Program-made: the position numbers and the translations under genes
In this document: in pieces, positions 1-34,145 of the stretch
How the letters are laid out: each line of letters starts with the position of its first letter
How positions within the stretch are numbered: position 1 is the first letter of the stretch
The notes under the pieces: generated by a model
The model's database searches: none
What the model was told of the DNA's origin: nothing
Seen by the model: the letters and a program-made list of their open reading frames with translations, nothing else
From: Kipferlia bialata
Taxonomy: Eukaryota
Length of the DNA stretch: 34,145 nt
Reading direction: 5' to 3'
Assembly: GCA_003568945.1 (NCBI GenBank)
Contig: BDIP01000070.1
Coordinates: 1-34,145, forward strand

Positions 1-124
1 TCCCCCTCTTCTTTCCTCTATCTCCGTTTCCTAGCGCCAACATCCATTCCCTCTCTCTTTCTGTCTCTCTATACCCCCTATGTCTCACTCTCAGTTTGAC
101 CTCCCCACAACCTGCTCCAACATG

Positions 125-165
<41 letters not shown>

Positions 166-206
166 ATGTCTCTCTTCTATATAGTTCAATGCACACCTTA
201 CTATAG

Positions 207-1799
207 GCTGACCTCCCCACATCATGCTCCAGCATGTCTGCCACCAAGGAGGGAGACACAGTGCACCTCACAGGTATTGGTATATCTGTATGTATAAGTG
301 TGCATATATATGCATATATACATATATTCATATGCAATTATGTGGGTATATACACTACTTAACTCAGGTGTTGTAACCTCTGGCGACCGTGTAACTAGGT
401 TCTCTCTCACGAAGGGTGCATGGACGCAGGAGGCCCTGCCTTACAAGGTATTATACATATATATACAAAGTGCACATGGTTTGATGTTAATGTTAATTCA
501 GTATGTTATGTATAATATGAATACTCTTTACGCATATATATATATATATCATATATATATATATATATCATATATGAATACTCTTTACGCATATATATAT
601 ATATATATATCATTATACGCACATATATATATATATCATAATGTATATAATGTATATATATACCCAATATGCCGTTAATGTACTTTTGTCTCTATGGGTA
701 CATTTCCACATACACGGCTGCCGTATACACGGAGTTCTGAGAGATAGAGCGGTGACATATGTATATTAATTATAAGTAGACTTTACTACATTTATTACTA
801 TTAAAATTTCTATATTCTTATGCTCTTGAACCCTTTCTTCTCACCTCTAGGCCCCCCACGTGACCTCTCTCTCTCTCTCCACTGGCACTCAGATACTGGT
901 AGGAAAGCTAGAGAGAGTGGCTGTGCCTAGCCGGGGAAGGAGAGTTCCAGGTATGGACTAAGACTTGTATTCATATTTATGTATACGGGATAATATTATT
1001 ATAGTGAAGGAGAGTTCGCGTTGCTACTGCAGCTCCAGGTATGGACTAAGACTTGTGTTCATATTAACGTATACGTGATATTAGAGTGCTTCTTTTTCAT
1101 CAATGTCCCGAAACGCAACTATCGCTAGTTTTCCATAATATTATTGATACTATTAGTATGGCCCTCGTAGAATCATTCATATTGTATTGTATGAATATGC
1201 TCTGCCTCATTATTGTTGTTGTGAATATGACACACCTCTCCTGATTTACACCATAGCTGCTGCCGCTGACCAGGGAGCTACTGGATTCGGTGCTGCCGCC
1301 GCCGCTACAGGTATATACATCTCTCCCTCTCTTATTAGTTAAACCAAGCTGCTCCCGTCGCTACAATACCACTCTCTGTCTCTGCATCGGACCATCCCTA
1401 TACTCTTTGTCCCAACCTTACTATATACTGCACTGCTCTATTCTATTTGTATACACTATATCAATTTACTGTGATATACTGACAATAGGCTTTGGAGCTG
1501 GCGTGCTCTCTCTCTCTCACACACATATTCTATCTATACATATATTTATTGTCTTCCTCAGCCTCTAACTATAGGCTTTGGAGCTGCCGCTGCCAAGCCC
1601 GGGGCCCCAGGTACGTGGATTGGTGTATATAGATAGAAATAGTATACCGACAGATAGATAGTTCGCGCTATCCCCCTACATTACACGTTGTGTTTACAGC
1701 ATCCCATACCTGATGTACTATCACACACCTTACCAATTAGCTGCCCCCGGTGCAAGAGGATTCGGAGGATTCGGTGCTGCCGGAACAGGTACACCTCAT

Positions 1800-1831
<32 letters not shown>

Positions 1832-1991
1832 GGACCGAGACTCGGTAGCTAAGTAGGACACCTCTGACTCCTGATTAACACTTTAGCTGCTGCCCCTGCC
1901 CCTGCCCCTGCCCCTGCCCCTGCCGGTGCGTTCGGTGGTTTCGGTGCCGCCCCAGCTGCTGCTGCTCCTGCAGGTATCTCTCCCTCTCTCC

Positions 1992-2023
<32 letters not shown>

Positions 2024-2574
2024 TATTATTATTATATACATTCTATCATCTTCTATCATTCATGTTTTGATCATGTTCTTATGGTTGTGTTTTACTCAAT
2101 TAGTGTCCCTCATGTAAAGCTGCTGCTCCTGCGTTTGGAGCTGCCCCAGCTGCCGCTGCTCCAGGTATCATTATCTCTCTCTCTCTCTCTTAAGTGATGT
2201 ATTCTCTCTGACATCAGTAGTTCTATAGTATCTATCATTAACGCTTGACACTATATCCTTCAGTGAGTAATACTATATTGGTTTCGTTCAAGTGCACATT
2301 CCTCATCCATGTCTTCTGTCGTTTCTCTTTTCTCTCACCTCACGGGGGCCCAACCTACCGTTACTGCTGCATGTATCTCAGTGAATCATTACTTCTGTCG
2401 TATGTACTATATCTCTCACTTTCAGCCTGGGGCGCCAAGCCTGCCGCTACTCCTAATGCTGCTCCAGCTACAACAGGTATATTATTCTAGTCTACACATC
2501 CCTCGTATTGTAATATCTTGTGTGTAGTATTACACTGCTTAATCGAAGTTGTACATCGTAACCATAGTTGTATG

Positions 2575-2610
<36 letters not shown>

Positions 2611-5600
2611 ACTGTAATTTTATCCTCACTCTCAGGTTTTGGTGCCGCTGCTGCACCAGCTGCCACAGGTGCATTCCATTACTATATCAATTAGTCAATA
2701 TATACTATACTGGTTTCGTTCGAGAACACGTTTCTTCACCACGTCTTTTGTCTTACTATCTTCTCTTATCTCAGTCAGGGGTGCCAAACCAGCCGCTCCC
2801 GCTGCTCCAGGTATACTTTATACAAGAGCAGTACTAACTGGAGAGCTAGAATAACATTGTAAGCTATTTCACTAGTATATTGAGTCTTCTTCCAATCTGT
2901 TTGAGACTCAGAGCTTTACTACATAATCCTTCCTGAGTTGTTGTAATTACCTATCATTAGTCATATGCAATGATTGGTATATACACAATGATCCTCACCC
3001 TCAGCTTGGGGTGCCGTAGCACCAGCTCCAGCTGCCACAGGTATACTATATCACTATATACATACAACCTCTTTCCAGCTATATACGTCTCCACTATTCT
3101 GCCGCGTTGTTGACGGGATACCATATCATTACGCGATACCACATCATTACGCGATACCATATCATTACCGTATGTGAGTATGTGCGTGTATAAATCTTAC
3201 TCTCAGCTTGGGGTGCCAAACCTGCCGCTCCCGCTGCTCCAGCTACCACCGGTATACTATTATACTCTACACATATATCGTATTGTAATATTTTGCGTCC
3301 GGTTTTTAACCGCTTAGTCGAAGTCGTCCCATAGTTGTATATGTATGCGTGCTCTTATTATCCTCACTCTCAGGTTTTGGTGCCGCTGCCGCAGCACCAG
3401 CTCCAGCTACCTCAGGTACCCTTATTCACTATACACAGCGTCCAGACCAATATAGATTTCCTCGTTTCCGAAGTAACATATTATCACATTAGCATGTGAA
3501 GTGTGTGTTGTTAGAGTATACATACATGATTCTCACTGTTAGCATGGGGCGCCAAGCCTGCCCCTTGGGCTCCCGCTTCTCCTTTCGCCAATACAGGTAA
3601 GCTCTTGACATACCTGCACGTATACTAATGGCTCTCGGTCATTCAATGTCTCAATCACTATCGTTGATTGAGCCAAATGGTATTAGCTTCCGACTATTCT
3701 GAGGACAATTTTTGCAGCCCGCATACTATGATTTGTTGCTCCTGTGCACACTCCCTCAATACCATTACTAGCCAGCTTCTGATATACCGTCGGCTGACTA
3801 TAGATATCAATGAGTCTCTCTTACTCACAAGATGTATATCAGTCTAATCCTAAATCCATACATCCATACTTCCTACTAAGACTGTCTAAGTATACGTATT
3901 TCTTTTACGTTTGACTATGATTCATTGTATGTGAATGACTCTAAGGGTTTGGTGCAGCCATAGCGGCACCTGCACCTGCCTATATTATTGACTGAAGTAT
4001 GTGTATATGGTAGTATACATAGTATACCTCACCATCAGCTTGGGGCGCCAAGCCTGCGGTTGCTGCAGCTCCAGCTACCTCAGGTACACTATATCACTCT
4101 TCACAGCATCCAGACCAATATTCATTTTCCTCCTTTCCGACTTAACGTATTATCATATTTAGCATGAAGTGTATTATATTTGAATATACATGCATGATTC
4201 TCACTGTTAGCATGGGGCGTCAAGCCTGCCGCTTCTCCTAAAGCTGCTCCAGCTACCACAGGTATAGTACTCTACTCGACACATCCTTCTAATTGTAATA
4301 TTGTATGTGCAGTATTCTAGCGCTTAGTCGAAGTCCATATGAAGTATATATCAATGTGTCTCTATTACTCACAATGTGTAAAGCGATCTACTCCTAAATA
4401 CATACATACGCTACCAACTAAGAAAACATACTTCTCTTACTTACGAATGACAATGAATGTGACTGTATTTGACTCCAAGGGTTTGGTGCAGCCATAGCGG
4501 CACCTGCACCATCCTCTACTAAGAAGGACACATACACCGACACCACAGAGGATGCCAGTGAGGCAGAGAGTGACACGCCAGTGGAGGACTCAGGTACCTA
4601 TATCTTCATATACTATATGTACTACACTTCTACTTCCTATGTAGTGTGTCAGTATCAGTATTATCATTATAGTTTCTCATCCCACAGGTGACGAGTCGGG
4701 CAAGGAACCAGCCGCCTTCAACTTCGGAGGTATAAGTCATCAATATGATCTCTATAATCTATCCATATATCCAACATGTACATTGGGCGTGATTCTCTTC
4801 AACTTCACAGGTGCACCTCTCGGATACTTTTACATGTTTGACCTTGATAGTGGGACGTATAAAGGTTGATTCTCTCTCATTTTTACTCAGAATAGGTTTC
4901 AAAGTGACTGGGGAGAGTGTGCTGGTACTACCTGCAGGCAAGAAGGCATGGACACCAACCAGGTAACGTGTGTCTATATGTGTGTCCCCATACAAATAGC
5001 ATCTGTACAAATAGTTATATCCATTCTCTCATTTCAAGGCGCCTCCCTGTCCACGTTGGCCCTGCCTCCTCATGTCTTCTGAACCCATACACGTTCATAG
5101 TGGTAGGTATCCAACGTACATATATATACCAGGCATATATACTCTAACTCCTCCAAACATATATAACGTAGAGACTACCATATTTGAGCACAATTGTATA
5201 TATCACACAATCGGCCATATCCATACTGAATGTATGATTACTTTGATATACACACACATCTATACTATCGACCTCTAGGCACCGACCACACTGTTATGGG
5301 TATATCCACTAAGGAGAGACAGAGAGTGCAGGCAGTCAAGGCAGCAGCGGTGGCAGAGAGAGAGAGAGACGAGCTGCTCTCCCTCTTCAAGGACCTGGCA
5401 CCTTCAGCTGACATCCCCTCTCTCTCCCCTGGGTTGCCATGGATAGCACCGGTCAAGGCAGCTCTATCAGAGGTAAATTGTGAACAAATAGAGATTATCC
5501 TTGCAGTGAGTTAATTTCACATCTCTCAAGAATACTCTGACCCCAAGGTTGCCATTCTCAAGGCGGCTAGTGGTCCCTGCCCTGAGTTTCTGTCCTTCAC

Positions 5601-8549
5601 TCCCTCTGACTCCGTTGCCCTGCAGTCTCTGATAGAGGAGGCAGAGGCATTTGACATGGCATCACTCGAGCCCCACATTGAGAGACTATCCAGGTAGATA
5701 TACATATATACGTACATATACATGCTTGTGTTGATGAGTGACGATGGTGAGGCATTTGACATGGCATCACTCGAGCCCCACATCGAGCGTCTGTCCAGGT
5801 AAAGAGTCTATATGTAGACATACACGTTTGTATATGCATCTATTGGAGTTGGTATACCCACACCTAATGCCCTTTGTGACTAAGTGGCGAAAGAAGCAAT
5901 ATGCTGGTGATGTCAGGTATCTACCCGTGGCAAAGAGGTTCGCCCCTAGGCTAGAGGCCCTCTCGAAGTTCCTAAAGGAGCACCCGGAGAGTGAGGTATA
6001 TCTGACATAGTTAGTATATATATATATATATTTATGTCATTTTGTGCGACTACGAGTGTCCGTGTGTGGCTATGTGGCCATAAGAACCTTAAAAACTGGC
6101 ATGTATCTTGTGATGGTGCTTCCAGTCCACTGACTCTCTCTCCCCCTCTAAAGATGTATGTATATTTCATTTGTGTCTGCATTCATGTCTCTCACATCAC
6201 CTTGTCTCTGGTGACGGTGAGTCTCTCTCTTTCTCTCTCTCTCTCTCCCTATTAATGTATATAGTCTATTATCTATCCTCAGCTTGTCTCTGGTGACTGT
6301 GAGTCTCTACTTCTTACCACTATCTATTTACATATATATTAGTAGTAATTGTATAAACATTCATGTATCTCACTCCAGCTTGTCTCAGGTGACTGTAAGT
6401 CTCTTCTGGAGACACTCACAGACCAGTTCAGTGCATTCAAGGTATGGTGCATTTGCAAAGGACCAATATATGGATAGTTTGTGTTGATGTGGCGCGTACT
6501 GTCTTCATATATGTGATGTACTCACAGGTCAGTTCAGTGCATTCAAGGTATGGTGCAATTATGATAACTATTCATTAGTATATATTTGTCAGAGGTAATT
6601 GTGACATCGTGCAATATACACTATATTAACAATTATATGAATTCTTAGACTTACCCATCAGGCCGACCTTGAGACTGTCACCGGTCTGGACTTTGACCCC
6701 CAAGAATCACTCGAAAAGATGCACTCTGCTGCTAAGCTACTCGACTCAATCAGTAGGTATAGAACTATGCGTATTCTTGTATGTACTATCTATCTATCTA
6801 TCTATTTTCCTATATTTCAGAGGTATGAGAGGACTGTGTGCATACATATATACTCAGATTGTGGTGTGTATAACCATGTACTGATATTTCTGATGTATAC
6901 GTATGTCCATATGGAGAGTTCACTTATGACTTAGGACCCGTGTCATCCCCCTCCCCCAGAACACACTGGCCCTGACCCTGGCCCACCAGAGAATGTACTT
7001 CCAGGTATAGAACACAGTAGTATTCAGGATGTTTACGTGAGAATGACTTCTCGGAGACAACTCCCAGGTATTGTGTGTATCACTATAGAGGACACAGTAA
7101 AACCTTTGCAATATACACACAACTGGTCTCATGCAGTTTTTACTATCAGTTTCACAGTCCGGTACAAGTAGTCTAACTCAGGTCAAGGGATTCAACGGCG
7201 GCGTTGCGACACTGTTCGGAGTGGCTGGACCAGTCATAGACAGCCAGGTATGGCGTACATTTATATACATATATGGTTATACATATATGGGTATGGAGTA
7301 TCACATATGTATATATCTCACACTCAGCCTGACAGTGAGGCATGTGTGTACATGCACATACATTTGTGGATATTTAGTATCATGTATGCATATATATATA
7401 TCATCGCAGCCTGCCATTGAGGTTCCTGAGTAGTATTCTGTCACTCATTCATATATACGTATGTGGTAGTAAAGTCTACAGTACATATATATCTCTCTAA
7501 CCCTCAGCCGGCCATTGCGGCATGCATGCAAGGACTGGAGGGTGTGATGACACCTGACACACAGGAGTGTGACTGGGTAACTGAGCAGGCAGAAAAGGTA
7601 TATAGAATATTTAACTAATTTCATATCCAATTATTCATATTCAGCAGGCAGAGAAGGTATATAGTATACATATCTCTACCTAATATCTACCTATTCCATT
7701 ATACTAGTATATTAGTGTATTTATATAGACTCAGGGTGACTGAGCAGGCAGAGAAGGTGTGTGTACATGTGTTGATACATGATATTGTTCATATATGAAT
7801 AGAGCTCTGCTGGACTCATAAGTTTCCAATGTCTAACCGATGTATGATATTTCTTATGTGTCTAATCCCAGCTCCTGGAGGCCCTTGCCCTTCTGGCACC
7901 CAGGCAGGCTGAGGCCAGGACACTGCTCGCTGAGGTATTCATGGTAGTGATATCATCGCTATAGTACCTTTCTCAATAATATATGTACTATTACCATACA
8001 GCAAAACGCTTAGTGTACTGTAATGCCATACACAGGCATCGGCACACTGTTGGAGTTCACAGTACAATGTGATATCTCCCTCCTAACTCCAGTGCTGTGT
8101 CATCAAGAATGTATCCGAGGATGGGGACATTGAGATCTAGATGCCTATATAATATGTGTATATATAGTGTACAACCCCCTACTAACTCTAGTTCACTGCC
8201 ATCAACACAGTGCCCGAGGATGGCGACATTGAGTATGCAGCATATGAGGTGACACGGGTGGAGACACTGCTCAAGAACCCAAGGTAGAATCATATATTAC
8301 ATTGGTCATATGTCAATCTCTCACCCTTAGACAGTCTGCCGAGGCCCATCTCAGGCCCATCTCTCTGAATCACTGCTTGGAATTCAAGTATCCTTAGCAG
8401 AATAGCATATAGTATAGTGTATATGTACAATGTATCTCACAGACAGGCTGTCCGCCCAGCAGAAGGCCCTTCTGTCTGATGAGCTGTTGGTCAACAGGCA
8501 GGCACTGCTGGACATGGAGAGAAGTCAGGTATACGGATGTGTCTCTATG

Positions 8550-8584
<35 letters not shown>

Positions 8585-9439
8585 CTCCCTGTGTATATAT
8601 TGAGTTGTTGGTCAACACACAGGCACTGCTCGATATGGAGAGAAGCCAGGTATATGCATGCATATATGTCTATATATATGTCAGCAATGTTATGTTGGTT
8701 TATGTCCTTGACTGCCAGGCTGACTTCACCCAGTACTATATGTATAGTGTCACATGTACCAGGACTCGTGTGTAGATATATATGCATGGGATCTATCTAT
8801 ATGTATTCATATATGATCCTGTATGATATATACACTGGCGTCTCACTGCCAGGCTGACTTCACCCGTCTCAGTGAGAAGCTGACACCCTTCAGGGAGTTC
8901 CCTGAGGTATTGGTGTTCTAAGAGCCCTCATATACATGCAAGTTACCTTTATATACTCATATGGCTGTGTACTACCACAGGTAGTGACAGCTATTCACAA
9001 GACAGAGCATACTATCACTATTGTATATATAGACAATTAACTCACTCGCATATGACTGTATTCTAACCACAGGTTGTGACAGCACTTGACAAGACAGACA
9101 CTATCTGTATACAATCATTACTGCATACTTTAAATATACACTCGCTTATGACTGTATTCTAACCACAGGTTGTAGCAGCACTTGACAAGACAGAGCCTGA
9201 GACAGAGGGTGACGCAGTGGTGACACCTGAGCAGGTCAACGGCATGACAGGTAAATAGTTATATTTGGCCTTAACTCATACTTGTGAGGAGTCAAGTCTA
9301 TAATAATCATAAATGTGCATAACATAGTTTCTTGTATTATTCGACCATAGTAGAAGTACTAGGAATAGTGTTGCTGACGATAGGCATGATGGTGAAGGGA
9401 GAGAGGACTCCAGAGGCAGAGATATGTGAAGTTGCTTGA
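207..9439 (+). CDS. Multi-exon gene (5' end outside window): kelch-like beta-propeller blades + Ala/Pro-rich FG/WG-repeat tract + acidic linker + helical C-terminal region; possibly nucleoporin-like
   Basis: Hand-spliced GT-AG exons keep one frame. 207-273, 368-447 and 851-950 give ADLPTSCSSMSATKEGDTVHLTGVVTSGDRVTRFSLTKGAWTQEALPYKAPHVTSLSLSTGTQILVG. Repeat exons run 1257-4729. 4896-4962 and 5039-5106 give GFKVTGESVLVLPAGKKAWTPTRRLPVHVGPASSCLLNPYTFIVVG. Further exons at 5279-5472, 5548-5693, 5917-5995 and onward lead to a last exon ending ...EAEICEVA-TGA at 9437-9439. The span includes introns, and the product call is inference. Confidence 0.7.
1257..4729 (+). repeat. Array of about 16 symmetric phase 1-1 mini-exons, most encoding one FG or WG repeat unit
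   Basis: Exons 1257-1310, 1575-1610 (GFGAAAAKPGAP), 1741-1788 (AAPGARGFGGFGAAGT), 1887-1973, 2120-2164, 2426-2476 (AWGAKPAATPNAAPATT), 2636-2668, 2775-2810, 3005-3040, 3207-3251, 3374-3415, 3543-3596, 4039-4083, 4211-4261, 4480-4593 and 4688-4729. All lengths are multiples of 3 and all are bounded by AG/GT. Confidence 0.85.
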
Positions 9440-9725
9440 ATGCCTGAAGATGTATGATCCTGGGTTGTGGTACCAATAGAGAGAGATATTCTGGACCTGG
9501 ATAGATCCATGCAAGAGTCCATAGGATCATCACACTTTTTCATATTTACGATCGCTTCAAGTCACACAAGAAAAACAATCAACCCGTCTGGTCTATTCAC
9601 TCCCGGCACGATAAATATATATGTAACAGTGAGTATATCAACTCACACACACAATGTTGGGTGTAAAGAAACAAAACAGGGACCCAACACAACTGACACA
9701 AACACCTCTCTCTCTCTCTCTCTCT

Positions 9726-10802
9726 CTAGTAGAATGATGGCTTGACCTGGTAGGGCTTCTTGGCACTCTTCTTGGCAGCACCCTGGTGGTGAGAACAAAA
9801 ATGAAATAACTATGCATCTTCTACAAACACATATATGTATAGAGTAGATACCTTCTTCTTGCCCTTCTTGTTCTTGGGCCTGACAAAGTACTGGACAGCA
9901 TATANNNNNNNNNNNNNNNNNNNNNNNNNNNNNNNNNNNNNNNNNNNNNNNNNNNNNNNNNNNNNNNNNNNNNNNNNNNNNNNNNNNNNNNNNNNNNNNN
10001 NNNNNNNATTACATATACATTATTTATAAGACACAAACCTTCTTCTTGCCCTTCTTGTTCTTAGGTCTGACAAAGTACTGGGCGGCATTGTGCTTGGCAT
10101 CGGCAATCTCACTGGAGTTAGACCCTTCTTAGACAATACACATATGTGTGTGGGAATACTATATACATACAGAGATATATGTGTGTGAACATACCCGCTC
10201 TTCCTCATTGTCCACTCTCTGCTCGCTCTCTGTATATTGATCTATCTTTTTGTATATATATCACGAAGCACATCTAGATATTCGGATAATAATTTTGTTA
10301 ACACTAATCATACCCGCTCTTCCTGCGTGTCCACTCCCTGCTCCTGTCATCTGTCAGCAACAGCTCGCCAAACATGTCCTAAGGAGTGAGAAGAACAGTA
10401 AATATGAATATAATTGTACCAATACAATTGTATCAATATACAATAGTGTAAATTGATCAATATACACACCTTGGACTGCTCCTTCTTAGTCTTCCTCTGG
10501 TGGTATCTGTCGGCAGACACCTGGGGGTGAGTAACACTCATGTACTCTAGAGTGAATATATATCAAACACAATGGTGGTAGGATATTGCATATACACCAC
10601 AGTACACTCACGTTGTATGTGCCAAACACTCCCCGCTGTGGGAGGTTCTTCCAGTCAGACTTCTTGTAGTGTCTGGGGTTAAGGTATACATATAGAGAGA
10701 GAGAAAGAGAGAAAGAGAGAGAGAGAGAGGGAGAGAGGGAAGTTCTTCCAGTCAGTCTTCTAGTAGTGCCTGGGGGTAGATACTGAGAGAGATGTGGGGG
10801 GG

Positions 10803-10835
<33 letters not shown>

Positions 10836-12200: not shown

Positions 12201-12250
12201 CTGGGGTAAGAGGAATATACATAGGATATGTGGATAGAAAGAGTGACTGT

Positions 12251-12295
12251 GGGGAGAGGGAGGGGGGGGGGTGGGGGGGGGGGGGGGGGGGGGGG
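12251..12295. other. Poly-G tract between two divergent, apparently 5'-truncated genes
   Basis: About 45 nt of almost pure G; flanking exons at 12200 (-) and 12355 (+) both begin at splice acceptors in phase 2. Confidence 0.8.
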
Positions 12296-12354
12296 ATGTT
12301 AATACAAGAGATTATAACTTTCTCAACATATGTATAACCTCTGTCTCACTGTAG

Positions 12355-17966: not shown

Positions 17967-18009
<43 letters not shown>

Positions 18010-21000: not shown

Positions 21001-24000
21001 CCTATCCACATAGTTCTGAGACATCCGTACTGACCCCATGTGCCTCCTACCTCCCCGTCAGCACCCTGCTAGCCCCCACCCTACTGGGAGAACCAGCTGT
21101 GTACAGGATAGGGAGACCCACATCACAGGTATTGTTCATCTATATATCCACCTATCCATCTATATATACACCTCGCTCTCTGATACTGATACTGAGACTG
21201 GTAGGGAGACCCACATCTCAGGTACTTCCCATTCCCTAATAACATGTCCCTAATATGTAACACCACATATATGCATATACTGAGTATACTGTAAGAGAGT
21301 GTTGATATCTAACCTCAGTCCAATGTCCCCATGGTCGACTGCCCCCCCATGACCTCTGTCACAGTGGCACATGGGTTTGGATCAAGGCTGATTAGCCCAG
21401 GGGCACTGCCAGGTATAGAGTATATGTATGCATTTGCGCACATATTGGGAACATATATTCTTGTATGGAAACACCAAGGAGCCGTTTGATTATAGGTGTA
21501 TATACAAGTATGGTTGTCATTTGTATCCACTAGTCCGTAGTCCTCTCACAACCAGTCATGTTTGCTGGCAATGGCTCCTCCAAGGATGCCCTGGACGTAG
21601 TGGCCACCCTGGACGTTGGCACAGTGGTCAAGAGCAGCAAGGACAAAGATGGTATGTGGTTTATATATGAGTCCCTTCACTATAACACCGTACATGTAGA
21701 TATGTGTTACAGAGACTATATATGTATATATGATATATGTATACTAATGGTAGGCCGCAACGTCACCTTGGTATGGTATATGTATATAGTATGTATACTA
21801 ATTGTAGGCCGCAACCTCCCTGTGGGTGTGTACAAGTGCATGGACACCTACCCCATATACATATATACATATATACAGTGTCTACAATATATTATAGATT
21901 AGACAATGTACTAATGTACTAATGGTAGGTCGTAATCTCCCTGTTGGTGTGTACAAGTGCATGGACACCTACCCCATATATATTGTAGAGATAATATATA
22001 TTGTAGAATTATATATACAGATAATACCGACACTGATAGCAGGACGCGATCTCCCTGTGGGTGTGTACAAGTGCATGGACACCTACCCCAGTGCCCTTGC
22101 CCTGTCCTCACCCGGTCCATGCATGGCACAGCACACTATAATGCTTCCGCCAGGTGTGTATTTATATATATATATATATATATATGAATATATCTTACTA
22201 TGTGTACATGTACTGCATTATGCTGCCACCAGGTGTGTGCTGTGATATCACATCACCCATTATATCATACCCTTTCTTGTCTCGCTATGTGTATACTATG
22301 TACTATATAATGTTCTCACCCCAGGTGTCTCTGCCAGGGCCATGGCCTATCACAAGTCAACTGACTCCATTCTGCTGGCTGCATACACCACTAGGTATGG
22401 ATAGTATATATACATATATATACATACATACATATATATGAATCTTATGTGACAAGTTATCCTGCTGGCTGCATACACCACGAGGTATTACGAATTTGTA
22501 TTATATACACATACGTATACAATAGTACTAGGAAGTATGATTGTATGCAGCATGGAGTGTTCAACCAAATTCTTTGTATTGACCATTGTATTCATAATCC
22601 CCATCTCACCCTGCAGGATGGAGGTCAGAGAGCCAAGGTCCATACATATACACATTTGTATATATATGTATAGCAATGTTAATATTGTCAACAGTGTACT
22701 GTATAGTGACATATGTATATGTATAAACACACATCTCACCCTGCAGGATGGAGGTCAGAGAGCCCAGGTCAACTGCCAAGGACAACACCAGAGCCGCAGA
22801 CGCCGCTAGGTACTACACTCATATATATATATGGCTAGGTACTATACTCAAATGTGTATATATATATATATATATAAATATAGTCTACATGTATAGTATT
22901 GCAAACAAGCTGAGAGCAGCAGACGCCGCTAGGTATGTTCTTAACGAGATGCATACACTATTCGTAAACTTTCGCTCCAAGTTTTCGTTGAAATTTCTCT
23001 GTCTTCCCTTTTGAATCGTTCTCAGTCCATCCCTGACCCTCTCTATTATTGGTTGTGAATTCATTCAAATCTCTCACCCCAGTCAGGCTGCCGAGGTTGC
23101 ACAGGAGGCCAGGAATATGGGAATGTAAGTGCATTGGCAGTCACTCCATATTTATACGTAGAGAGATCCTTTCCTGCGCAATGGTTAATTCATTAGCTAT
23201 TCTATGACTGTAATTCATCTATCTCATCAGACCTTCTCCCCTGATGCATATAGTTTTGCATGTATGTACGCGCGTGTGTGTGTGATATGTGTTCTTACCC
23301 CTTTGGGAGCCCTCCGAGGCCTTAGCCCGTATACCTATATATATTCGTGAAACAGCATATGTACACATATATATTCGTTCAATGTCTGTATGATAATAAT
23401 CTTACCCTTCAGGGAGCCCTCCGAGGCCCTTGCCCGTATGCCTATTGGTATATATATACACAAGTGAAAAACATTTTGAACTGAGTGTATATAATTGTTC
23501 TCAACCCTTAGGGAGCCCTCTGAGGCCTTAGCCCGTATACCTATATATATTCGTGTAACAACAAATATGTACACGTATATATGTATCGAATGTATGTATT
23601 ATATTAGCCTTACCCTTCAGGGAGCCCTCCGAGGCCCTGGCCCGTATGCCCAAGGTGGAGAGGCCACCCAGTCCACCCCTGCACAGGACAAAGTGAGTGA
23701 TAGCATGCTGTTGGCATAGATGTTGTATTGATTGAAGACCTGTTACAGTACACCCCCTCACCCCCAGTGCAGAGACATATCAATATCATATTCAGTATAC
23801 TAGAGTATATACTAAAGATAATACAGTACCTATAGTACCCCCTCACCCCCAGTGCCGAGAAGGAGTCAGACCCCGAGGCACTGCCCATGTATGCAAGGTG
23901 AGAACCCAGAAGTATACTATATACACTAATACTCTGTAGTGATAACTGTATATGTATATTGGTATATGTATATGTATATACAATTGGGAAGGAGTCAGAC

Positions 24001-25272
24001 CCCGAGGCACTGCCCATGTATGCAAGGTATGGATAATACACGTCATATGTATATATATACTATATATATACTCTAAATATACAGTCAGTTTACCTACTAT
24101 GTCTGTGTAATTATGAGGGAGACAGACCCCGAGGCGCTGTCCGTGTACTCGAGAGCATATGTGTATTGTACTATTACATGATTTGTATATATCCGGTTAT
24201 ACATGTTGCATCTTTGGTGTATGTCTCACCTTAGGGAGCAGCACCGCCTGATCCTGATCTCTGCCTCGACAGGAGAGGTCATGGACTCACACATGATGAG
24301 GTACTTTATATACTGGCATTATGTGTATAGTATGCTAGATAGTGTACACATGCTCTCTGCCTAACCTCCCTAGGGCTCATATTTCTTCCATCTCACCCTC
24401 AGGTCTGCCTATGGCGAGGAGGTCACGTGCATTGCCTCTGGCAATGTCAGAGCGGCATTCCCACAGAGACTGGGTACGATTAGTATACATATCATTGTTG
24501 ATACCCCTACACATATATACACATGTTCATAGATATCAGAGCGGCATTCCCACAGAGACTCGGTACGATGAAGTATCAGTGACTATCACTATGTATTGCT
24601 TGGATGGTGTATCCATCTCTCATCCCCCAGGTGCCCATTGGCGCCCTGCCGCTGACATGCTGGATGCATTTGGAAGGGTTGATAGGAGGTAAGAGTCAAT
24701 ATGGTATACTGCATAGCATGTATATTTACACACACACATATATACACAAATTCATATACGTGTATACATTATGTATATGTCCTATATATCATATGCCACT
24801 GACATGCTGGATGCAGTTGGAAGGGTCAACAGGAGGTATGGTATCACCAAGTTGTCAACATACACAACACTCTCTAGGATTGACCGTATTCACTTCTACA
24901 TGATTGAGTATTTAATAGTCTTTGTAGTATATGATCTTCATACTCCTAGGAACCGATCCGGCACTGAGGTCGATGGCCTCTATATTATATTGCTAACAGA
25001 TATGTACTATATATTGTACTCGCTTAGGAACCGTGCAGGCACTGAGGCCGGTGCCATGTTGAGACTATACTACATATATGTATATATATATATATATAAA
25101 TATATATATGTATTAGTACTATTATATACAATTATTATATACTGTTTTCTTACTCCTAGAAACCGAGCTGGCACTGAGGCCGGTGCCATGCTGAGACTGG
25201 CCTTCCTGGGTGGTAACAGACTGACAGACCAGTGGAAGGAGGTGCTGGTGGTAGGAACTGCATTGGTACAAG
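12355..25272 (+). CDS. CPSF1: CPSF160/Cft1-like (DDB1/SF3B3/CPSF1 superfamily) multi-propeller protein, partial; N-terminus and most of the C-terminal propeller not found
   Basis: About 35-40 spliced exons give motifs in the same order as I recall for CPSF160: YVTKEPTLGMASPYRDVVVQITP (about 14950-15050), LCVLLSTRNGSVLAYDLSD (16848-16955), IYMPVALTSGEQMLYRL (about 18420-18575), FDFSGGYLCIG (about 19595-19688), ARAMAYHKSTDSILLAAYTT (about 22325-22393), EQHRLILISASTGEVMDS (about 24235-24300), EEVTCIAS (about 24403-24472) and KEVLVVGTALVQG (25160-25272). Orthology versus DDB1/SF3B3 is not computed. Confidence 0.65.
13885..14200 (+). repeat. Exon 3' end + donor echoes (three copies after the complete exon)
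   Basis: ACTCTACAGCACAGCNAAGACAANNCCNAG|GTA ends the complete exon at 13924 and recurs ending near 14011, 14101 and 14195. Confidence 0.9.
19870..20650 (+). repeat. Tandem array (about 110-120 bp period) of acceptor + exon-5' echoes ending in the complete exon at 20608
   Basis: Core AG|GGCCACACCTCCTCTGCCGAGGCYGACCCCACTGAGCACCC at about 19872, 19984, 20104, 20221, 20382 and 20492, each running into TA-rich filler. Only the copy at 20608 continues to a donor (about 20704). An N-gap lies inside the array. Confidence 0.92.
23300..23660 (+). repeat. Acceptor + exon-5' echoes (three copies before the complete exon at 23621)
   Basis: GGAGCCCTCYGAGGCCYTNGCCCGTATRCC at about 23306, 23413, 23512 and 23621. 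Confidence 0.9.
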
Positions 25273-25530
25273 GTATGTCTTTTGATGTATATGATGTATT
25301 GTATATATACAGTATATGTATATATACATTGGGTATATGTAGACAGACCAGTGGAAGGAGGTGCTGGTGGTGGGCACTACACTAGGGCAAGGTATGTGTT
25401 ATGTGTGTATATTTTTTTGTTGTGGGATGGGGGGGGGGGGGGGGATAAAAAGATTTTTTTAAAAAAAATTTTTTATCCTCTATTGTATATATACATATGC
25501 ATATATATGGATCATGGGGCTCACTGTTAG

Positions 25531-25972: not shown

Positions 25973-26387
25973 GTATGGTACATGTACATATACACACACT
26001 ATATCCACCAAGTATAAGGGGAGAGGGAGGCATACTAGAGGGGGGAAGTGGGTATATATATATATATATGTGTATAGACACTCTTCATATCTACTATATA
26101 TGTATGGAGACAGAGAGGTATCCTCTAGGGGGAAGGTATGGTACATATATGTATAAGTATATCTACATGTGTGAGTATATACACTAAATATCATTAAGCA
26201 CATGTATAGTATATATATACATACACACTATATATTGAGACAGAGAGGCATCCTCGAGGGGGAAGGTGGGTATATATGTGTGTGCGAGTATTTGTATGTG
26301 GCTACGCAATATATATCCACTATATATTTCTATATGGGGACAGAGAGGTATCCTCGAGGGGTAAGGTGGTAAATGTATTTGTTTATT

Positions 26388-26432
<45 letters not shown>

Positions 26433-26821
26433 GTAATTGTTTATATACATAAGAAGATACATAAACACTATATACTATATACATACTATATACATACTAT
26501 ATGTATGTGGAGTCAGAGTGGTATTGTCGATGAGTATATGTATATATGTATACACACCATGTATATGCTTCTGTGATGGCTTGTGGATGTATACTAAGAA
26601 TGACAGTGTGTATATGTACAGTAAGGTTATGTATACCCCTTTATTTCAGGATTGTAGAGTGGTGGTGTTTGTATATGTGTATGCATAGGTATATCTGTAT
26701 TCAGTATATATTTGTGTTCATGGTGGCCATTTGTGCCTCAAGTCTTCTCCCACCTTGTTCCGTGTGACATACGGTCTCTCATTGATATAGATAGTATATC
26801 TATACCTATTCTCACCCCCAG

Positions 26822-29321
26822 ACCCGGCCCCACACTGAAACCAAGGGTACTGAGAGGCCCCGACCCAAGGGCACTGTCAAGACCAAGGGCCCCCAGGAGA
26901 AGGTATGTAGGCATCTCTGTCTATATACACCCTCTGCTACTGTCTCTCTGTTACACTGTGTCTCTCTCTCTGTAATACCTATCTCACCCCAGAGACGGCC
27001 AGCTACAACAAGAGAGAGAGAGAACGGACAGAGTCCCTCTTGGAAGAAGGAGGTGATGACATACACATGTATTTCTTGTATTGCTGCTCGGTATTGCTTC
27101 TTGGTATTATCCCGGTGAAGTGTTTCTTGGATATAGTATTGTATATATATATATATGTATACACACATATATATATATACATACTGCGTACTTTCACCCA
27201 TCTTCTTTGACGTGCCTCACCCTAGCCCCAGAACAGGACTGACACTCTCCGCAGCATGACCCACGTGACAGGTGCATATGTCAAGACGATCACCAAGGTG
27301 GGGGTGGTGGGGACTGTTTCTATGTATATATTTGCATGTATATTAGTGACTGACTGGGTTTGTCAAGGTGCTCCCCTCTGACCCTAGGAACCGGCGCCTG
27401 GTAGGACGGAACTCCTAAAGGTGTTGTACCCACAGGCCGGAGGTGTGTATAGCCAAGTGTTCTTGATATATATCACATCTTAGGATGTATTCATCCTCAT
27501 GCTCTTCGTATCGAGTGCTGCTGTACCCTTCAATCTCATCTACATACACCCTACCTCTGATTGCAATGTACAGTGTCTGACTCCAGCTGATCTGAGTCTG
27601 CTGTCTGTCTATGTAGCGGACCTTTACCGGGGTATCGAGCGTCCTGACCTCTCGGCAAAGACTGACGTCCTCAAGGTATGAAGTTTTATGTATATTATAT
27701 ATGCATTGTAGACCATGTTATCAGTCTCTGATACAGCAGACATTGAGGTGGGAGATTGGACAGGATGTGTGGTTATTGGCTATATCTGATGCACCCTCAT
27801 CACAGGAACAGATGGAGGCAATCACTGTGGCCCAAGAGAGTCTCAGACACATATCTCTCACGGGACTGTACATTCAGAAAGAGGTATCGGTTTTAGTTTC
27901 ACTATTGTACTATATACTAGTGTTTATATATATGAGTGTATACGTTCATGCCAATATTTTGACAGATTCTGACACACCGACAAGATGGATTAGTGTTAAC
28001 AGCACTTGTATGTATATGTATATGTGTATACCTTAGAAATCATTAATTGATACTGAGAGATAGATACTTGTATCAGTATTGACATTCCATGTTTCTATGT
28101 AACGGGTACTGCGCAGATTCATTCTAGAGAGTGACAGTCCCACATACCCAGTAATTGTGTGATATGCTATTTATTGCCCTCTCCTATTCTCACCCAGTGT
28201 AAGGATGCCAGTTTTTGGAACGGCACAGTAGGGGCTCCGGTGAAGAGGTACAGCTATACTCCTACTTGTGTTCATTGTATTGTTTCGAATGTTCCACCTT
28301 TGCATTGTATTCTGATATTATCACAACCACTATACCAATGTACTGATGCACTTATGTATAGATATTATGATACATGTATCATGTCACCTGATCCCAGTTT
28401 CAAGGATGAGGTTGTGTCCAGGGTGGAGGAACTGAAGAGGGTGGTGGCAGAGGGGCAGAGACAGCTCGAGGTGAGGACTGGGATGGGTATATGGAGAAAT
28501 TGTCGTTTGGATATTGTATTATTAGGATACGTAGCTGTTATACTGGCAATATGCACACATATCTGTGTTTTGGGTATTAATTCTATCGAGTATGGTGTCC
28601 ATTTGACTGATATTCAGGAGATCCGTGTCTACAGTGAGGGAGTCCTTACCATGAACGCACTCCTAGAGACCTACGAGGCCACCGACAAGTCTGAGCAGGT
28701 ATTAGCAGTGTAGTGTAGTATAGTACTCAGTATAGGCAGTGAACGGGTGGTGAGTATTCTATATGTGTGCCTAGCCCTAACCACAGGAACACATCTCAGC
28801 CCTTCTGGAGGCCTCAGATCCAGAGATCGTGGGGGGTGTCGACGAGGTGTGTTCATTCGACCTCTCTCTTATGTGACTGTAGTATACTATCATGTACTTC
28901 ACACTTTACTCATGTTCAGGTCGTTGATCGTCTCGTCAAGAGTGTTGCCCCAACTCTAACTAGACTGACAGAGGTCTGCACACTACTCGGTGGTACGTCC
29001 ATTCTAACATTGCCTGTTATATATATGTCTGCAGAACAGATCATATGTATGTCAATTATATATATGCATTCTATTCTGTGTGCCTACATGAACCTAGTTG
29101 ACCTGTGTGTCTTTGCAACCTGTGTTCTCCCCCTCACCCACCAGAGGAGGCCCTTGAACTACTCGGTCATACCAACGTCGCCCATGCCCAGAGACTGGAG
29201 GAACTCAACACAGAGTACGGTGCAGCTATGTATATACTTGTCTCACAATATACAGTGATATATCATACTGGATTTTCATCTTCACCAGCACCTAGCCCCT
29301 TGTATCAACTGGCTAAATATG

Positions 29322-29354
<33 letters not shown>

Positions 29355-31653
29355 CAATATTTATCATACATATATTGTATATTATAGTATATACACCTAA
29401 ATATTGGCATATAGTATTTACCATCTTGTATACTGCGTTTCATGTATCATCTTATATATATATTCATATATATATCATCTCATATATATCTTCTTGTGTA
29501 TATCCTCTTGTGTTTACCATCTCATATATATCACCTCATATATATCATCTTATATATATCATATTATATACATCACCTTATATATATCACCTCATTCATA
29601 TCATCTTATGTTCCCCATCTTATGGTCACCATCCTATATACACCACCCAATATACCTCACCTCATGTATACCACCCTATATACCCCACCTCATGTATACC
29701 ATCCTATATACCCCACCTTATGTACACCATCTCATACCCCCCCTTATGTCAGGAAGGAGGCGGCAGCACAACGCATCGAGGCTGCTGAGACAGCCCAGCG
29801 GCTGAGAGGTCTGTTGGATGGACACCTGGAGGACCTCGAGGCCACCACCCGGAGGCTGTTAGAGGTATGGTGGGGTGACGGTGGGTGTGATATGTAGTTA
29901 TAGGATGATAGCAACATGGATATCTATCTATATATGTAGTATAATGAATGTTACATATAGTATATACATGTCTATATGTATACGTATAGTATACAAATCA
30001 TATCTAGAACTATATCCCGTATATATGTAAATGTCACATATTCAGACATTGAGAGTGCACGTGAGTATGCATATGTCAGTCTGTGTGTGCATATCCCCCT
30101 ATCTCTGCTGATTCCAGTCGGTTGACAGTGCCCCAGGCTGGTCTGACAGGCTAGAGCTGATCAAGCAGGTATCGGCTGTTGTCCAATATCTGTTGACACT
30201 ATATTTATATATATATATATGTATATATATATACATATACATATACATATATGCAATGACTATATAGTATAGTACTGATGGGTCCCCTCATGAACCAGGC
30301 CTCCCTTGAGATGGAAGGGGGTGCCATCCACAGGGTACTGGGCCACATCAAGGACACCGCTGGGCAGATGGGTACGGGTATGCTTCTAGTGACTATGTAA
30401 GTACATACAATGCATGACCGTTTGACCCCAGGCGAGGTGTCCCCTGATCCCGAGGCCACGGCCACTGACATAGTACGGCAGTTTGCGGACTCTCTCGCAG
30501 ACAGGTACCCACAATACTCCTACATAAGTTGACCTGTACTGTTACTCTGTGGATATTCAGACAGAGAAGATATTCCATATTGTGTAAGACTCTGCCCACA
30601 GTTATATATATATACTCCGCATACAATCACATTTATACATATATACCACTATATCTATCTCATTATTACCTTCCCCCACCCCATAGGAAGGGAGAGGCTC
30701 AGAGAGAGAGAGAGGCAGAGGCAGAGAGAGAGGCAGAGGCAAAGAAGCAGGCAGCAGAAGAGAGGCGTGCTAAGGCGAAGAGGGACAGGCTTGATAGACA
30801 CGTCGCAAAGGTATCAGTATCAGTATCAGTATTAGTATCATACTGATAGACACGTGTGAAAGGTGGGCAGGGTGGTGTATATCACATATACCATGCCGTA
30901 TCTCCCCTCTTGCCGTCTCTCACCCTTCAGACCACTGCCTGGTGTGATAGCACCATGGGCTTTCTCAACAAGGCAGAGGAGTGCCACCAGGACTACCACG
31001 TCACCAGAGACAGCGGGAGGGAGGTGTCTGGGTTCCATGCCGCCATCGCCGACATTGACACCCTGGCCCAGGTACCTGTTGTATCAGTATCAGTATCAGT
31101 ACACATAGTGAGTACATGCTAGTGTGACCTGATGTGGCCAACGTATCAGTATCACTATCAGTATTGACACCCTGGCCCAGGTACCTGCTTCATGATATAT
31201 ATATATATATATATTTATATATAACCGACCGAACTCATCTCTCTAGGAAGGGACTGAGCTCAAGGCCGGGGCCACCCAGATTGACCAGTGGCTCCAGCAG
31301 GATGGCTCTGAGGAGCTCGACAGAGAGGGCTCTGCACAGACAGAGGTGCGGCCCCGTCTAACCTACGCGATAGTCTAAATCTGCTCTTGTTATAGTGTAA
31401 TGCTATGTCGTCATTATAATGCCAGTGGTCAGTCCGAGACATACTTGGGTGCTACGGGGATGCCTGTGATCGGCTGAGGTCTAGACATGACGAGCTGACC
31501 ATCACACTCCAGGCCCTCATGGAGTCCTTCTCTAAGGTGAGTGGTTGGTTGGTCTCTCACTACACTGTCTGACTACCACACTATTGTTCTGGTACACTCC
31601 ACACACATATACATGTATATGGCTATTAATAATCATATGGTGAATATATATAT

Positions 31654-31684
<31 letters not shown>

Positions 31685-32679
31685 CCATCTTTGCTGACAC
31701 CCAGGGCGAAAAGGCTGTCAAGGACTGTGAGGGCAGTATCGGGTCTGTAGAGGACTGGTGCCAGGTATGTATGGGACCATATACACGCTGCTCTCTCTGC
31801 CTATCCCCCATATTTCTCTTTACTCAGCACTCACATACCTGTAATCCATACCCATTTATATATATACTACATACATTCCTCGCATGCAGTTTGCTATGAC
31901 GTAATTCTCCCCTCAGGTCCATATCGCCTCGATACCTCGGAATTTTGGGGGCACTAAGGTTGTAGATGGCAAGGCCGGCCAGTATCAGAAGGCCCTCAAG
32001 ATGTGGACAGGTATCTGGTATATACGGTACCATGCTATTATTCAGTAAACTTGTCCAGGGGTGTATGTTTGGTTACTGTTTCGTTCTCTGTGTTTAGATG
32101 CAGAGTCAAGTTACAGTTCATTGAATGAACATTTCTAGTATGTCGGTACCAGTGTTTCACTCTCCCTGACCCAAGAATGTCTAGAGGAGGCCGACAGCGC
32201 TCAAGAGGCTGTTCACCCCAGAGATGACATCAGTACAGCACGGTAAGTAGTGATATGTGACAGTAATCAGAGTCAATAGTATATGTAGAGCACATATACA
32301 TGGTATATGGGCACCCACTCACCACAGGGTGTGTCGTCTCCAGGAGTACTGTACCAAGAAGATGGCTGAGTGTAAGGCTGCCCAGAGGGCACTAGAGGAC
32401 GGCACTGACCCCACCTGCAAGATACGTACACCCACAGTGCTCGCTGGGGGGTCCAGTCTACTGCGCCCACCTGCCACAGGTATTACCCATATATACCTGT
32501 CACATGCATTATATATATATATATATATACATATACACATATATATTTATATACATATATATACACACATATATATATACACAGCACCCTGTTACAGGTA
32601 TTACTCATATATACCTGTCACAGACACNNNNNNNNNNNNCACCCTGTTACAGGTATTACTCATATATACCTGTCACAGA

Positions 32680-32726
<47 letters not shown>

Positions 32727-34145
32727 CACAGCACCCTGTCACAGGTATTACTTGTCTCAGTCTCCGTATTCTCCATCCAATAATACATTGAGTTATTGCC
32801 TTCATTTTTAATGTCCTCTCTACTATGTGTATATAGTATAAAGGAGGTACTAACATACCCCATGTTCTGTACGCATGTGCGTATATATATATAGTAATTT
32901 GTGTGTGTGTAGGTATATTAGTATATATATGAGTGTGCGTGTAAATGTCCATATTATATGCTTCTCACCCCAGGCCTGGTCCTGGCCACCAACATGCGCA
33001 CAGGTACCTGCATGGGGCGTGTCAGTATCAGTATGGTGTCTGTGATGTTTGTGGTGTCAGTGATGTCAGTGGTGTCTGTGTAAGCTGACACTAAGATGAG
33101 TCTGTTATGCCTTCTTCTGTCTCATCCTCAGCGGTCTGTGCCGAGTATGGTGTCCATGGCTGTGTGTCTCCAGCGGTATCCCCCAGACAGACCAGACAGA
33201 GACCCCCAGAGAGACCGGACATCATAGCACATCAGAGCCCACAGGTCATGGTACTGACACTTATACTTATGCTGATACTACGTTGCCAGACACAACGTAC
33301 ATATCGGTCCAGTGGCTGTTGGAATTATCAACTCTCTTTGTGTGTTTAGCTGTCATACCCCTGACGTCCAGCCCCGCATATATATAGACATAGAGCCACC
33401 AGAGCCAGTGCCCGCTGCTGCCCCCCCAGGTATGTGCTGTATATGTATATATGTAAATGTATGTATATATATATATATATTTATAGTGTTTCTTTTATGA
33501 CTATAGTACTCGATACATACAATCAATATTCATATATATCTTCTTTATGGGTCTATTGTATTGGGTATGGATACCTGCTTAAATCATCATGCTATCTCTC
33601 ACCCCAGCCACGGCCCCTGCCCAGTCCAAGCAGATCGATGAGTCGAAGGACACTCCTTTGAACTTTGGGTCACTGGTAAGACGCTCTCTCTCTCTTGTCT
33701 CTCTGTTAGTGACACTCTATAGCAGAGCGTTACTGAGTATACTAGACGCTCTACAGATGTACTGTATATTTGTTGTTTCACTGGCTGCTCTCGTTACTCA
33801 CGAGTTTCAGGCTGTGGATCTGACGCATCAGGGGAGCTCATGCTCTGACCAGCCAGAGACGGAGACCTTGCCAGCAGAGCGAGAGAGAGATGCCTATGCT
33901 GGAGAGAGAGAGAGAGAGGCTATGCCTAGAGAGAGAGAGGCCAAGGCTGGAGATGCACCGGAGCAGGCCCTGGTGGCTATGGCCAAGGTGTCAGTGACCA
34001 CTCAAGCAGAGGTGGGGTCAGTGGCCCCTGGGCTGAGCAAGGTGTCTGGCCCCCGGGTGTCTCCCTCCCTCCCCAGGGACAGCATTCCTCTACATGATAT
34101 GCCCGTCAAGGGCACCCTGCCACTGACCAATCCCCCTGCACCCAT
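26822..34145 (+). CDS. Large multi-exon alpha-helical/coiled-coil protein (weakly spectrin-repeat-like) with Pro-rich low-complexity tail; runs off the window end
   Basis: Spliced exons read TRPHTETKGTERPRPKGTVKTKGPQEK (26822-26902), ADLSLLSVYVADLYRGIERPDLSAKTDVLK, FKDEVVSRVEELKRVVAEGQRQLE, KEAAAQRIEAAETAQRLRGLLDGHLEDLEATTRRLLE, TTAWCDSTMGFLNKAEE...IADIDTLAQ (30931-31071) and GEKAVKDCEGSIGSVEDWCQ. The final exon is open from 33811 to the end. Start codon not identified. Confidence 0.65.
29400..29750. repeat. Degenerate intronic minisatellite (about 14/28 bp units such as TATATACCCCACCTCATGTATACCATCC)
   Basis: Visible periodicity. It produces spurious stop-free Tyr/His/Pro/Ile ORFs in three frames and lies between gene 4 exons. 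Confidence 0.7.

What the first reader, a model, noticed from the sequence alone, without database searches (positions are those of the whole stretch)
95..32750. Pervasive polar 'exon echo' architecture: introns filled with half-exon copies carrying intact splice sites
Seen: a large share of exons in all four genes, on both strands, are flanked by partial copies of themselves with consistent polarity. Upstream introns hold [branch point + AG + first 15-50 nt of the exon], e.g. 95, 1489, 3946, 6283, 8719, 9073, 12490, 15398/15485, 16588/16704, 19872-20492, 21808/21929, 22617, 23306-23512 and 24951/25028. Downstream introns hold [last 15-50 nt + GT donor], e.g. 1006-1038, 5749-5798, 8601-8649, 13975-14195, 15702-15840, 17532-17713, 25343-25391 and 32585-32745. 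Each copy breaks off into (TA)n-rich filler. Inference: a genome-wide process duplicates exon/intron junctions in tandem, leaving many decoy splice sites. The spliceosome would then need the first donor and the last acceptor, implying strict exon definition or stepwise/recursive removal. I do not recall this as a described system, but I cannot search the literature.
Basis: partly seen in the sequence, partly recalled or inferred. Interest (0 to 1): 0.9.

Follow-up and report, generated by a model that had tools for sequence, protein, structure and literature searches.

The report
Half-exon echoes with allele-like divergence
In this intron-rich eukaryote a third or more of the modelled exons sit beside broken copies of their own splice junction, which the one transcript examined skips; the copies differ from the working exon mostly at silent positions, so they were likely captured from other working versions (alleles) of the gene.

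Summary
The echoes are real. 82 junction copies flank 46 of 111 modelled exons (about 4 chance hits expected), with none on the 'wrong' side. A separate assembly of the same sample's DNA spans several; an RNA-like contig skips all 6 intact decoys in the 7 introns it covers. The polarity is the geometry of a head-to-tail duplication. Such repeats are known as amphioxus 'mirages' and at human F7 and CBS; this scan met them before in sea-urchin genes. Recursive splicing is not supported.

Not found in print: the density, and three disagreeing clocks. Echo versus exon differs at 5.6% of non-degenerate but 24% of four-fold sites (ratio 0.23; a dead copy gives about 0.55). Echo versus echo gives 0.28. 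The intron flanks are mostly unalignable, yet splice dinucleotides are kept. Each echo thus looks like a piece of a once-working gene version. Best reading (0.5): recombination between strongly diverged alleles, tolerated because splicing picks the sites nearest across the exon even in short introns. No second allele was found. New variant of a known kind; interest 0.62.

The parts
207..9440 (+). Gene g1, 35 modelled exons, 811 codons with FG/WG-type repeats (nucleoporin-like by recall only); 5' end lies outside the window
   Evidence: open frame to a single stop; strong echoes at 7 of 35 exons
9729..12200 (-). Gene g2 fragment, 8 modelled exons (Fcf2-like by recall; not confirmed by any search)
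   Evidence: open frame; echoes at 5 of 8 exons
12355..25272 (+). Gene g3 fragment, 39 modelled exons (CPSF160/DDB1-family-like by recall; not confirmed)
   Evidence: open frame; first 7 exons and start of the 8th in RNA-like contig X2 record 9; echoes at 23 of 39 exons
26822..33675 (+). Gene g4 fragment, 28 modelled exons, nearly echo-free
   Evidence: open frame; strong echo at 1 of 28 exons
95..124 (+). Upstream echo (AG + 5' part) of exon 207-273
   Evidence: 25/28
5735..5798 (+). Downstream echo (3' part + GT) of exon 5548-5693; differences in its last 50 nt are silent
   Evidence: 54/64
6201..6547 (+). Two upstream echoes (6201, 6283) and one downstream echo (6520) around exon 6379-6441
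8093..9098 (+). Echoes of exons 8192, 8447, 8853 and 9169 (8098, 8601, 8719, 8981, 9073)
9852..10768 (-). Echoes of g2 exons 10111, 10378 (downstream) and 10672 (upstream)
   Evidence: X1 record 1 spans 10033-10681 without differences
11084..11777 (-). Four upstream and two downstream echoes around g2 exon 11423-11323
   Evidence: X1 records 3 and 4 span 11090-11244 and 11215-11454 without differences
12476..12513 (+). Upstream echo of exon 12620-12677: 24/24 identical, different flank, acceptor scoring above the real one, skipped in the transcript
12739..13718 (+). Downstream echoes of exons 12620, 13349 and 13549 (12739, 13458, 13692), skipped in the transcript
   Evidence: X1 record 7 spans 12306-13915 without differences
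13973..14288 (+). Three downstream echoes of exon 13851-13924 (each with a different intron flank; outermost 39/39) and one upstream echo of exon 14354; all skipped
14710..15840 (+). Echoes around exons 14946-15050 and 15582-15664 (upstream 14710, 14850, 15400, 15486; downstream 15103, 15701, 15795)
16587..19513 (+). Echoes of exons 16847, 17400, 17867, 18225, 18955 and 19596
19870..20532 (+). Array of at least six upstream echoes of exon 20608-20704, period about 110-120 nt, with an N gap inside
20783..22932 (+). Echoes of exons 20608, 21073, 22043, 22325 and 22747
23306..24147 (+). Three upstream echoes of exon 23621 (alternating units, higher-order period about 207) and two downstream echoes of exon 23853-23897 (39 of 45 nt, acceptor missing)
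24533..25391 (+). Echoes of exons 24403, 24631 and 25160
26107..26365 (+). Short downstream echoes of the lone exon 25892-25972
32582..32760 (+). Three short downstream echoes of exon 32328-32479, mostly intron-side similarity

Best explanation
These are head-to-tail duplications of exon-intron junctions ('mirage' repeats, about 110 nt) that the one transcript examined splices out, and whose copies likely come from different, strongly diverged working alleles rather than from the neighbouring exon itself. Shown: the copies, their polarity, their intact splice dinucleotides, skipping in 7 introns, the silent-site bias, the mostly unrelated flanks. Inferred: exons are the only good homology between alleles whose TA-rich introns have drifted apart. 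Recombination or break repair that starts in an exon either copies half an exon plus 40-110 nt of intron from the homologue and rejoins without homology, or swaps the outer unit of an ordinary tandem duplicate for another allele's. Repeats of this, and some slippage between units, build arrays. Selection removes copies that hold a whole exon or a whole intron and spares single-junction copies. They are spared because the spliceosome likely pairs sites across the short GC-rich exon (58% GC against 37% in introns), which only the complete copy offers.
For: Nearest echo versus exon (46 exon sides): 56 of 1003 non-degenerate sites differ, 67 of 276 four-fold sites; ratio 0.23, bootstrap 0.16-0.32, unchanged after base standardising, alike in g1, g2, g3 and on both sides. 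A simulated dead copy beside a live exon, found with the same detector, gives 0.54-0.57. Echo versus echo in 16 arrays: 25 of 353 against 27 of 107, ratio 0.28 (0.17-0.41), where two dead copies should be near 1. Non-degenerate differences run GC-to-AT in the echo (33 against 13), four-fold ones are more even (23 against 16). Flanks: 16 of 45 exceed the 95th percentile of unrelated introns, 29 do not; no correlation with exon-part identity (rho 0.06); simulated 11% divergence would leave about 100% alignable. All five echoes with a perfect exon part have null-level flanks. Splice dinucleotides are kept in 63 of 69. X2 record 9 skips 6 of 6 intact decoys, two scoring above the real site, each offering an intron of 67-342 nt. 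Precedent: in human CBS the insertion carries the wild-type base while the outer copy can carry the variant.
Against: No second allele or paralogue was seen: over 12420-13357 only one DNA contig lies at >=95% and no other letters are listed (contigs drop variants), and a metagenome scan found no relative. The model needs silent divergence between alleles of about 0.18 (my arithmetic), which is very high. 16 of 45 flanks are clearly homologous and several arrays have near-identical units, so ordinary tandem turnover also acts. The nearest echo is the more identical in 11 of 16 arrays, as serial budding from the live exon would give. g4 is almost echo-free, unexplained. 103 of 111 exon models have no RNA check, and codon classes depend on them. 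RNA evidence is one contig; it cannot show minor use of decoys. Only one intact decoy acceptor was RNA-tested.
Confidence: 0.5

Rival explanations
1. Classical mirage/minisatellite model: slippage or unequal exchange on the same chromosome copies a junction, and the dead copy then decays neutrally, with TA-rich fillers scrambling faster.
For: Matches the model in Ebner et al. 2010. TRF sees several echo arrays as tandem repeats of 87-125 nt; 16 of 45 flanks are homologous; nearest copy most similar in 11 of 16 arrays; introns hold many other tandem repeats.
Against: Predicts a ratio of about 0.55 (simulation) against 0.23 seen, and near 1 between echoes against 0.28. Predicts near-identical flanks for perfect echoes; all five are at null level.
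Confidence: 0.2
2. Echoes are kept under protein-level selection because conversion, unit deletion or recruitment as new exons (Ebner's intron-gain route) often puts them into the reading frame.
For: Explains the silent-site bias and intact splice signals without needing divergent alleles; only 3 stops in 768 echo codons (28 output).
Against: Conversion within one chromosome still gives a ratio near 0.5 unless it is frequent, and frequent exchange would erase the 24% silent divergence (my reasoning, not simulated). Using a decoy breaks the frame or adds a stop in 50 of 58 cases. The RNA contig has no echo letters.
Confidence: 0.15
3. The decoys work in splicing: stepwise/recursive intron removal, or regulated unproductive splicing.
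For: Decoy donors score like real ones (31 of 33 above the real 10th percentile; Wilcoxon p=0.27); 23 of 36 decoy acceptors do too.
Against: Exons with an upstream echo start with GT in 4 of 24 cases against 15 of 83 others, so no donor is regenerated; the AG before a downstream echo's GT has an acceptor-like context in 3 of 33. It does not explain a bias that follows the reading frame. 53% of ordinary intronic GTs also pass the donor cut-off.
Confidence: 0.08
4. Assembly artefact: two haplotypes of a heterozygous genome stitched in tandem.
For: Would give silent differences and unrelated introns. N gaps lie inside three echo regions and the scaffold looks misjoined at G-runs. X1 may be the window's own source data.
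Against: Separately assembled X1 contigs cross filler-to-echo junctions without a difference at depth 384-448 (records 1, 3, 4, 7). Such junction words would not exist in either allele alone. Arrays of 3-6 distinct units exceed two haplotypes.
Confidence: 0.07

Closest known systems
Amphioxus 'mirages' (Ebner et al. 2010, PMC3087553, passages read; Pavelitz/PGBD5 paper PMC3902484, passage read; Canestro et al. 2002 not held, seen only as cited)
   Same: [quoted passage not shown]
   Different: Reported for a handful of lancelet genes; here 37-46 of 111 exons in one window, in short introns. The passages read mention no silent-site bias and no unrelated flanks. Length or somatic polymorphism, shown in amphioxus, was not testable here.
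Human F7 intron 7 37-bp VNTR (Borensztajn et al. 2006, PMC1557585, abstract read)
   Same: First unit spans the exon-intron boundary; downstream pseudo-donors are functional but silent; the first donor is used.
   Different: One locus, identical units, donors only; 5'-to-3' scanning explains first donors but not last acceptors.
Human CBS c.844_845ins68 (PMC7490669, passages read)
   Same: Copy of the last 52 nt of an intron plus the first 16 nt of the exon; the exon-side acceptor is used; the two copies can carry different allelic bases.
   Different: A single polymorphic event whose intron part is nearly identical.
Exon- versus intron-definition proximity rule (Carranza et al. 2022, PMC9225289, abstract read)
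   Same: Under exon definition the sites closest across the exon are chosen, as here.
   Different: There short introns favour the sites closest across the intron; here introns of 144-429 nt use the sites closest across the exon (7 introns, one contig).

Membership tests
Mirage repeats | Tandem copies spanning an exon-intron boundary, at 5' or 3' end | tested here: met
   42 upstream 5' and 40 downstream 3' copies; TRF periods 87-125
Mirage repeats | Many but not all units keep AG/GT | tested here: met
   32 of 36 and 31 of 33
Mirage repeats | Normal mRNA splicing is not disturbed | tested here: met
   7 introns in one RNA-like contig, 6 of 6 intact decoys skipped; minor isoforms not visible in contigs
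Mirage repeats | Units homologous over their whole length, with concerted evolution | tested here: inconclusive
   true for some arrays; 29 of 45 nearest flanks at null level
Mirage repeats | Copy-number polymorphism between haplotypes or cells | not testable with these tools
   only contigs of one sample listed
Recursive splicing sites | Acceptor context followed at once by a regenerated GT donor | tested here: not met
   4 of 24 versus 15 of 83; 3 of 33
Recursive splicing sites | Intermediates or lariats at the sites | not testable with these tools
   no raw RNA reads listed
Tandem (mutually exclusive) exon duplication | Complete exon copy with both splice sites | tested here: not met
   median 42% of the exon copied, maximum 87% and then without acceptor; whole-exon copies occur only in the g1 repeat region
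Introner-type mobile introns | Dispersed family of similar introns or fillers | tested here: not met
   101 of 125 same-strand self-hits lie within 1 kb; the 40 of 52 reverse-strand hits printed are TA/CT-type simple sequence; window only

The most novel reading that the evidence does not exclude
In this genome, recombination between hyper-diverged alleles routinely misfires at exons and leaves half-exon-plus-intron pieces of other alleles in tandem, so that introns hold a fossil record of lost alleles and grow by it; the spliceosome copes by strict cross-exon definition in short introns, with thousands of natural competing-site experiments genome-wide.
Probability: 0.35. Interest if true: 0.85.

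Novelty: new variant of a known kind. Interest (0 to 1): 0.62.

Why it matters
Mirage repeats are known from a few animal genes and their origin was called unclear. A window with dozens of them allows the first codon-level test I could find, and it rejects simple copy-and-decay. If alleles are the source, one assembly would reveal past polymorphism and cryptic sex or hybridisation in an organism with a single sample. The echoes are also a natural, large set of competing splice sites in short introns, where the published rule predicts the opposite choice. Practically, they trap gene predictors: my own predictor called many echoes as mini-exons.

Tried and rejected
No genome is held for the window, so no genome-wide count. 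Run search: 2 rows, one sample, no holder on record as RNA; X2 is RNA by guess, though it skips GT..AG introns exactly. Contigs were laid on 10008-14012 only; no X2 contig covered g2 there, which says nothing on expression. The organism and gene names therefore rest on recall. From memory the intron style suggested an intron-rich fornicate protist; untested. In two papers on that group I saw passages only: PMC5874029 has no 'tandem' or 'duplicat' in its main text; PMC6679479 none on such repeats. Literature searches: 0 papers; listing only; no paper read on the repair mechanism, which is my inference. Canestro et al. 2002 is not held; its text and Ebner's supplements (unit alignments), which I did not open, may already bear on the silent-site bias. 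Rejected: detector bias, base composition, polarity as independent evidence, in-frame use of decoys (25 of 58 in frame, 8 clean; close to chance by my estimate). The g1 whole-exon control lists only pairs with one flank score >=30, so it shows that introns can stay alignable at 18-40% third-position divergence, not how often. No look-alike earlier notes for this genome.

Full report
Setting. The window is eukaryotic DNA with short GC-rich exons (median 68 nt, 58% GC) and TA-rich introns (median 173 nt, 37% GC). No genome was available and no search identified the organism or the genes. A self-trained predictor followed by hand curation gave 111 exons and 106 introns, all GT-AG, in four open frames plus one lone exon. 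Exons end in AG in about nine of ten cases. These are my models; only eight exons are touched by RNA evidence.

The observation. Self-BLAST put 101 of 125 same-strand hits within 1 kb. Aligning each exon to its two neighbouring introns gave 85 hits in 216 pairs, against a null of 2.0% in 8,558 non-adjacent pairs. 42 are 5' parts upstream, 40 are 3' parts downstream, 3 are interior and none is reversed. 46 of 111 exons have a hit, 37 at the stricter score. For the 69 stricter echoes the exon part has median 35 nt and 91% identity, spacing has median 111 nt, AG is kept in 32 of 36 and GT in 31 of 33. Decoy donors score like real ones; decoy acceptors are somewhat weaker (mean 6.0 against 8.8 bits; 14 of 36 equal or higher). 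Density is uneven: 23 of 39 exons in g3, 1 of 28 in g4.

Are they in the DNA? Run X1's contigs, assembled separately though possibly from the window's own sample, cover 12306-13915, 10033-10681, 11090-11244 and 11215-11454 with no difference at depth 384-448. These contigs cross filler-to-echo junctions, which neither of two plain alleles would contain. An artefact is unlikely; copy numbers at the three N gaps stay open.

What splicing does. X2 record 9 (6,529 nt, depth 158) has consecutive pieces on seven g3 exons, five listed GT..AG joints, and a loose end that reads as exon 14354. Its seven introns hold eight echoes, six with an intact dinucleotide. All are skipped, although they would leave introns of 67-342 nt and two outscore the real site. 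Recursive removal fails two sequence tests. Using a decoy would break the frame or add a stop in 50 of 58 cases. Choice of the sites closest across the exon is what Carranza et al. report for exon definition, while for short introns they report the opposite (abstract).

Polarity. Duplicating [intron end + exon start] head to tail leaves the orphan upstream; duplicating [exon end + intron start] leaves it downstream. The score of 82 to 0 shows that copies are local and in tandem, nothing more. Whole-exon copies appear only where the protein tolerates them, in the phase-1 repeat exons of g1, which fits a selective filter (inference).

The unexpected part. Mismatches fall 54, 35 and 128 on codon positions 1, 2 and 3 (unique differences). 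With one echo per exon side, 56 of 1003 non-degenerate and 67 of 276 four-fold sites differ: ratio 0.23, bootstrap 0.16-0.32. A dead copy next to a perfectly conserved exon cannot go below about 0.5; simulation with the same detector gave 0.54-0.57. Two echoes of one array, both supposedly dead, give 0.28. The intron flanks are a third clock: 16 of 45 are recognisably homologous, 29 are not, with no relation to exon-part identity. At exon 13851-13924 the outermost echo is 39/39 identical, yet its flank shares only the first three letters. Low amino-acid divergence, moderate silent divergence, high intron divergence and intact but different splice signals describe two working versions of a gene. 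The AT-ward drift at non-degenerate sites (33 against 13) reads as a short decay since capture.

Mechanism. I infer capture from diverged alleles: repair or crossing-over starts in an exon, the only close homology, and either copies into the homologue's intron and rejoins without homology, or exchanges the outer unit of an ordinary tandem duplicate. Slippage between units adds near-identical copies in some arrays (19870-20532, 23306-23541). Against this: no other allele shows in the sample's contigs or in metagenomes, the implied silent divergence of about 0.18 is very high, the nearest copy is usually the most similar (11 of 16), and g4's lack of echoes is unexplained. Confidence 0.5; the weaker claim that these are real, skipped, mirage-type repeats I put near 0.85.

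Known relatives. Ebner et al. 2010 describe minisatellite-like duplications of both exon boundaries in amphioxus, with splice signals often kept, splicing undisturbed and mechanism unclear (passages); a second paper repeats this for other lancelet genes (passage). Human F7 (abstract) and CBS 844ins68 (passages) are single-locus cases. My searches found no report at this density, none outside animals, and none on a silent-site bias; the original mirage paper and supplements were not seen.

Verdict. Observation confirmed with small overstatements; interpretation partly supported. A new variant of a known kind, with one result, the reading-frame signature in 'dead' copies, that specialists should find surprising and that is directly testable. 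Interest 0.62.

Noticed in passing
window 12262-12295 and 25429-25444: Gene fragments abut at long G-runs. The RNA-like contig runs 2,249 nt further 5' of 12353 and the letters next to that point are not in the window; X1 record 7 stops at 12306. The scaffold is probably misjoined here, so the four genes may not be neighbours.
   Followed up: partly
window 1257-4729: The FG/WG-type repeat of g1 is built from 16 small exons that all start and end in phase 1, several duplicated with their introns (e.g. 3362-3566 versus 4027-4234, 80%).
   Followed up: partly
window 29445-29749: Purely intronic 14/28-nt minisatellite whose unit drifts from TA-rich to C-rich along the array.
   Followed up: no
window 23306-23650: Echo units alternate in two types, a higher-order repeat of about 207 nt.
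   Followed up: partly
window 943-1083: The downstream echo at 1006-1038 is 18 nt longer than the exon end it copies, in frame: an indel difference that keeps the reading frame.
   Followed up: partly
window 4811-4864: Possible extra in-frame exon of g1, left out of my model because it would need a 31-nt intron.
   Followed up: no
window 25446-26821: Exon structure unresolved between the G-run and 26822; exon 25892-25972 does not join 26822 in phase.
   Followed up: no
window 6520-6547 and 17676-17713: Some downstream echoes are preceded by an acceptor-like AG and so form potential mini-exons; no RNA check.
   Followed up: no
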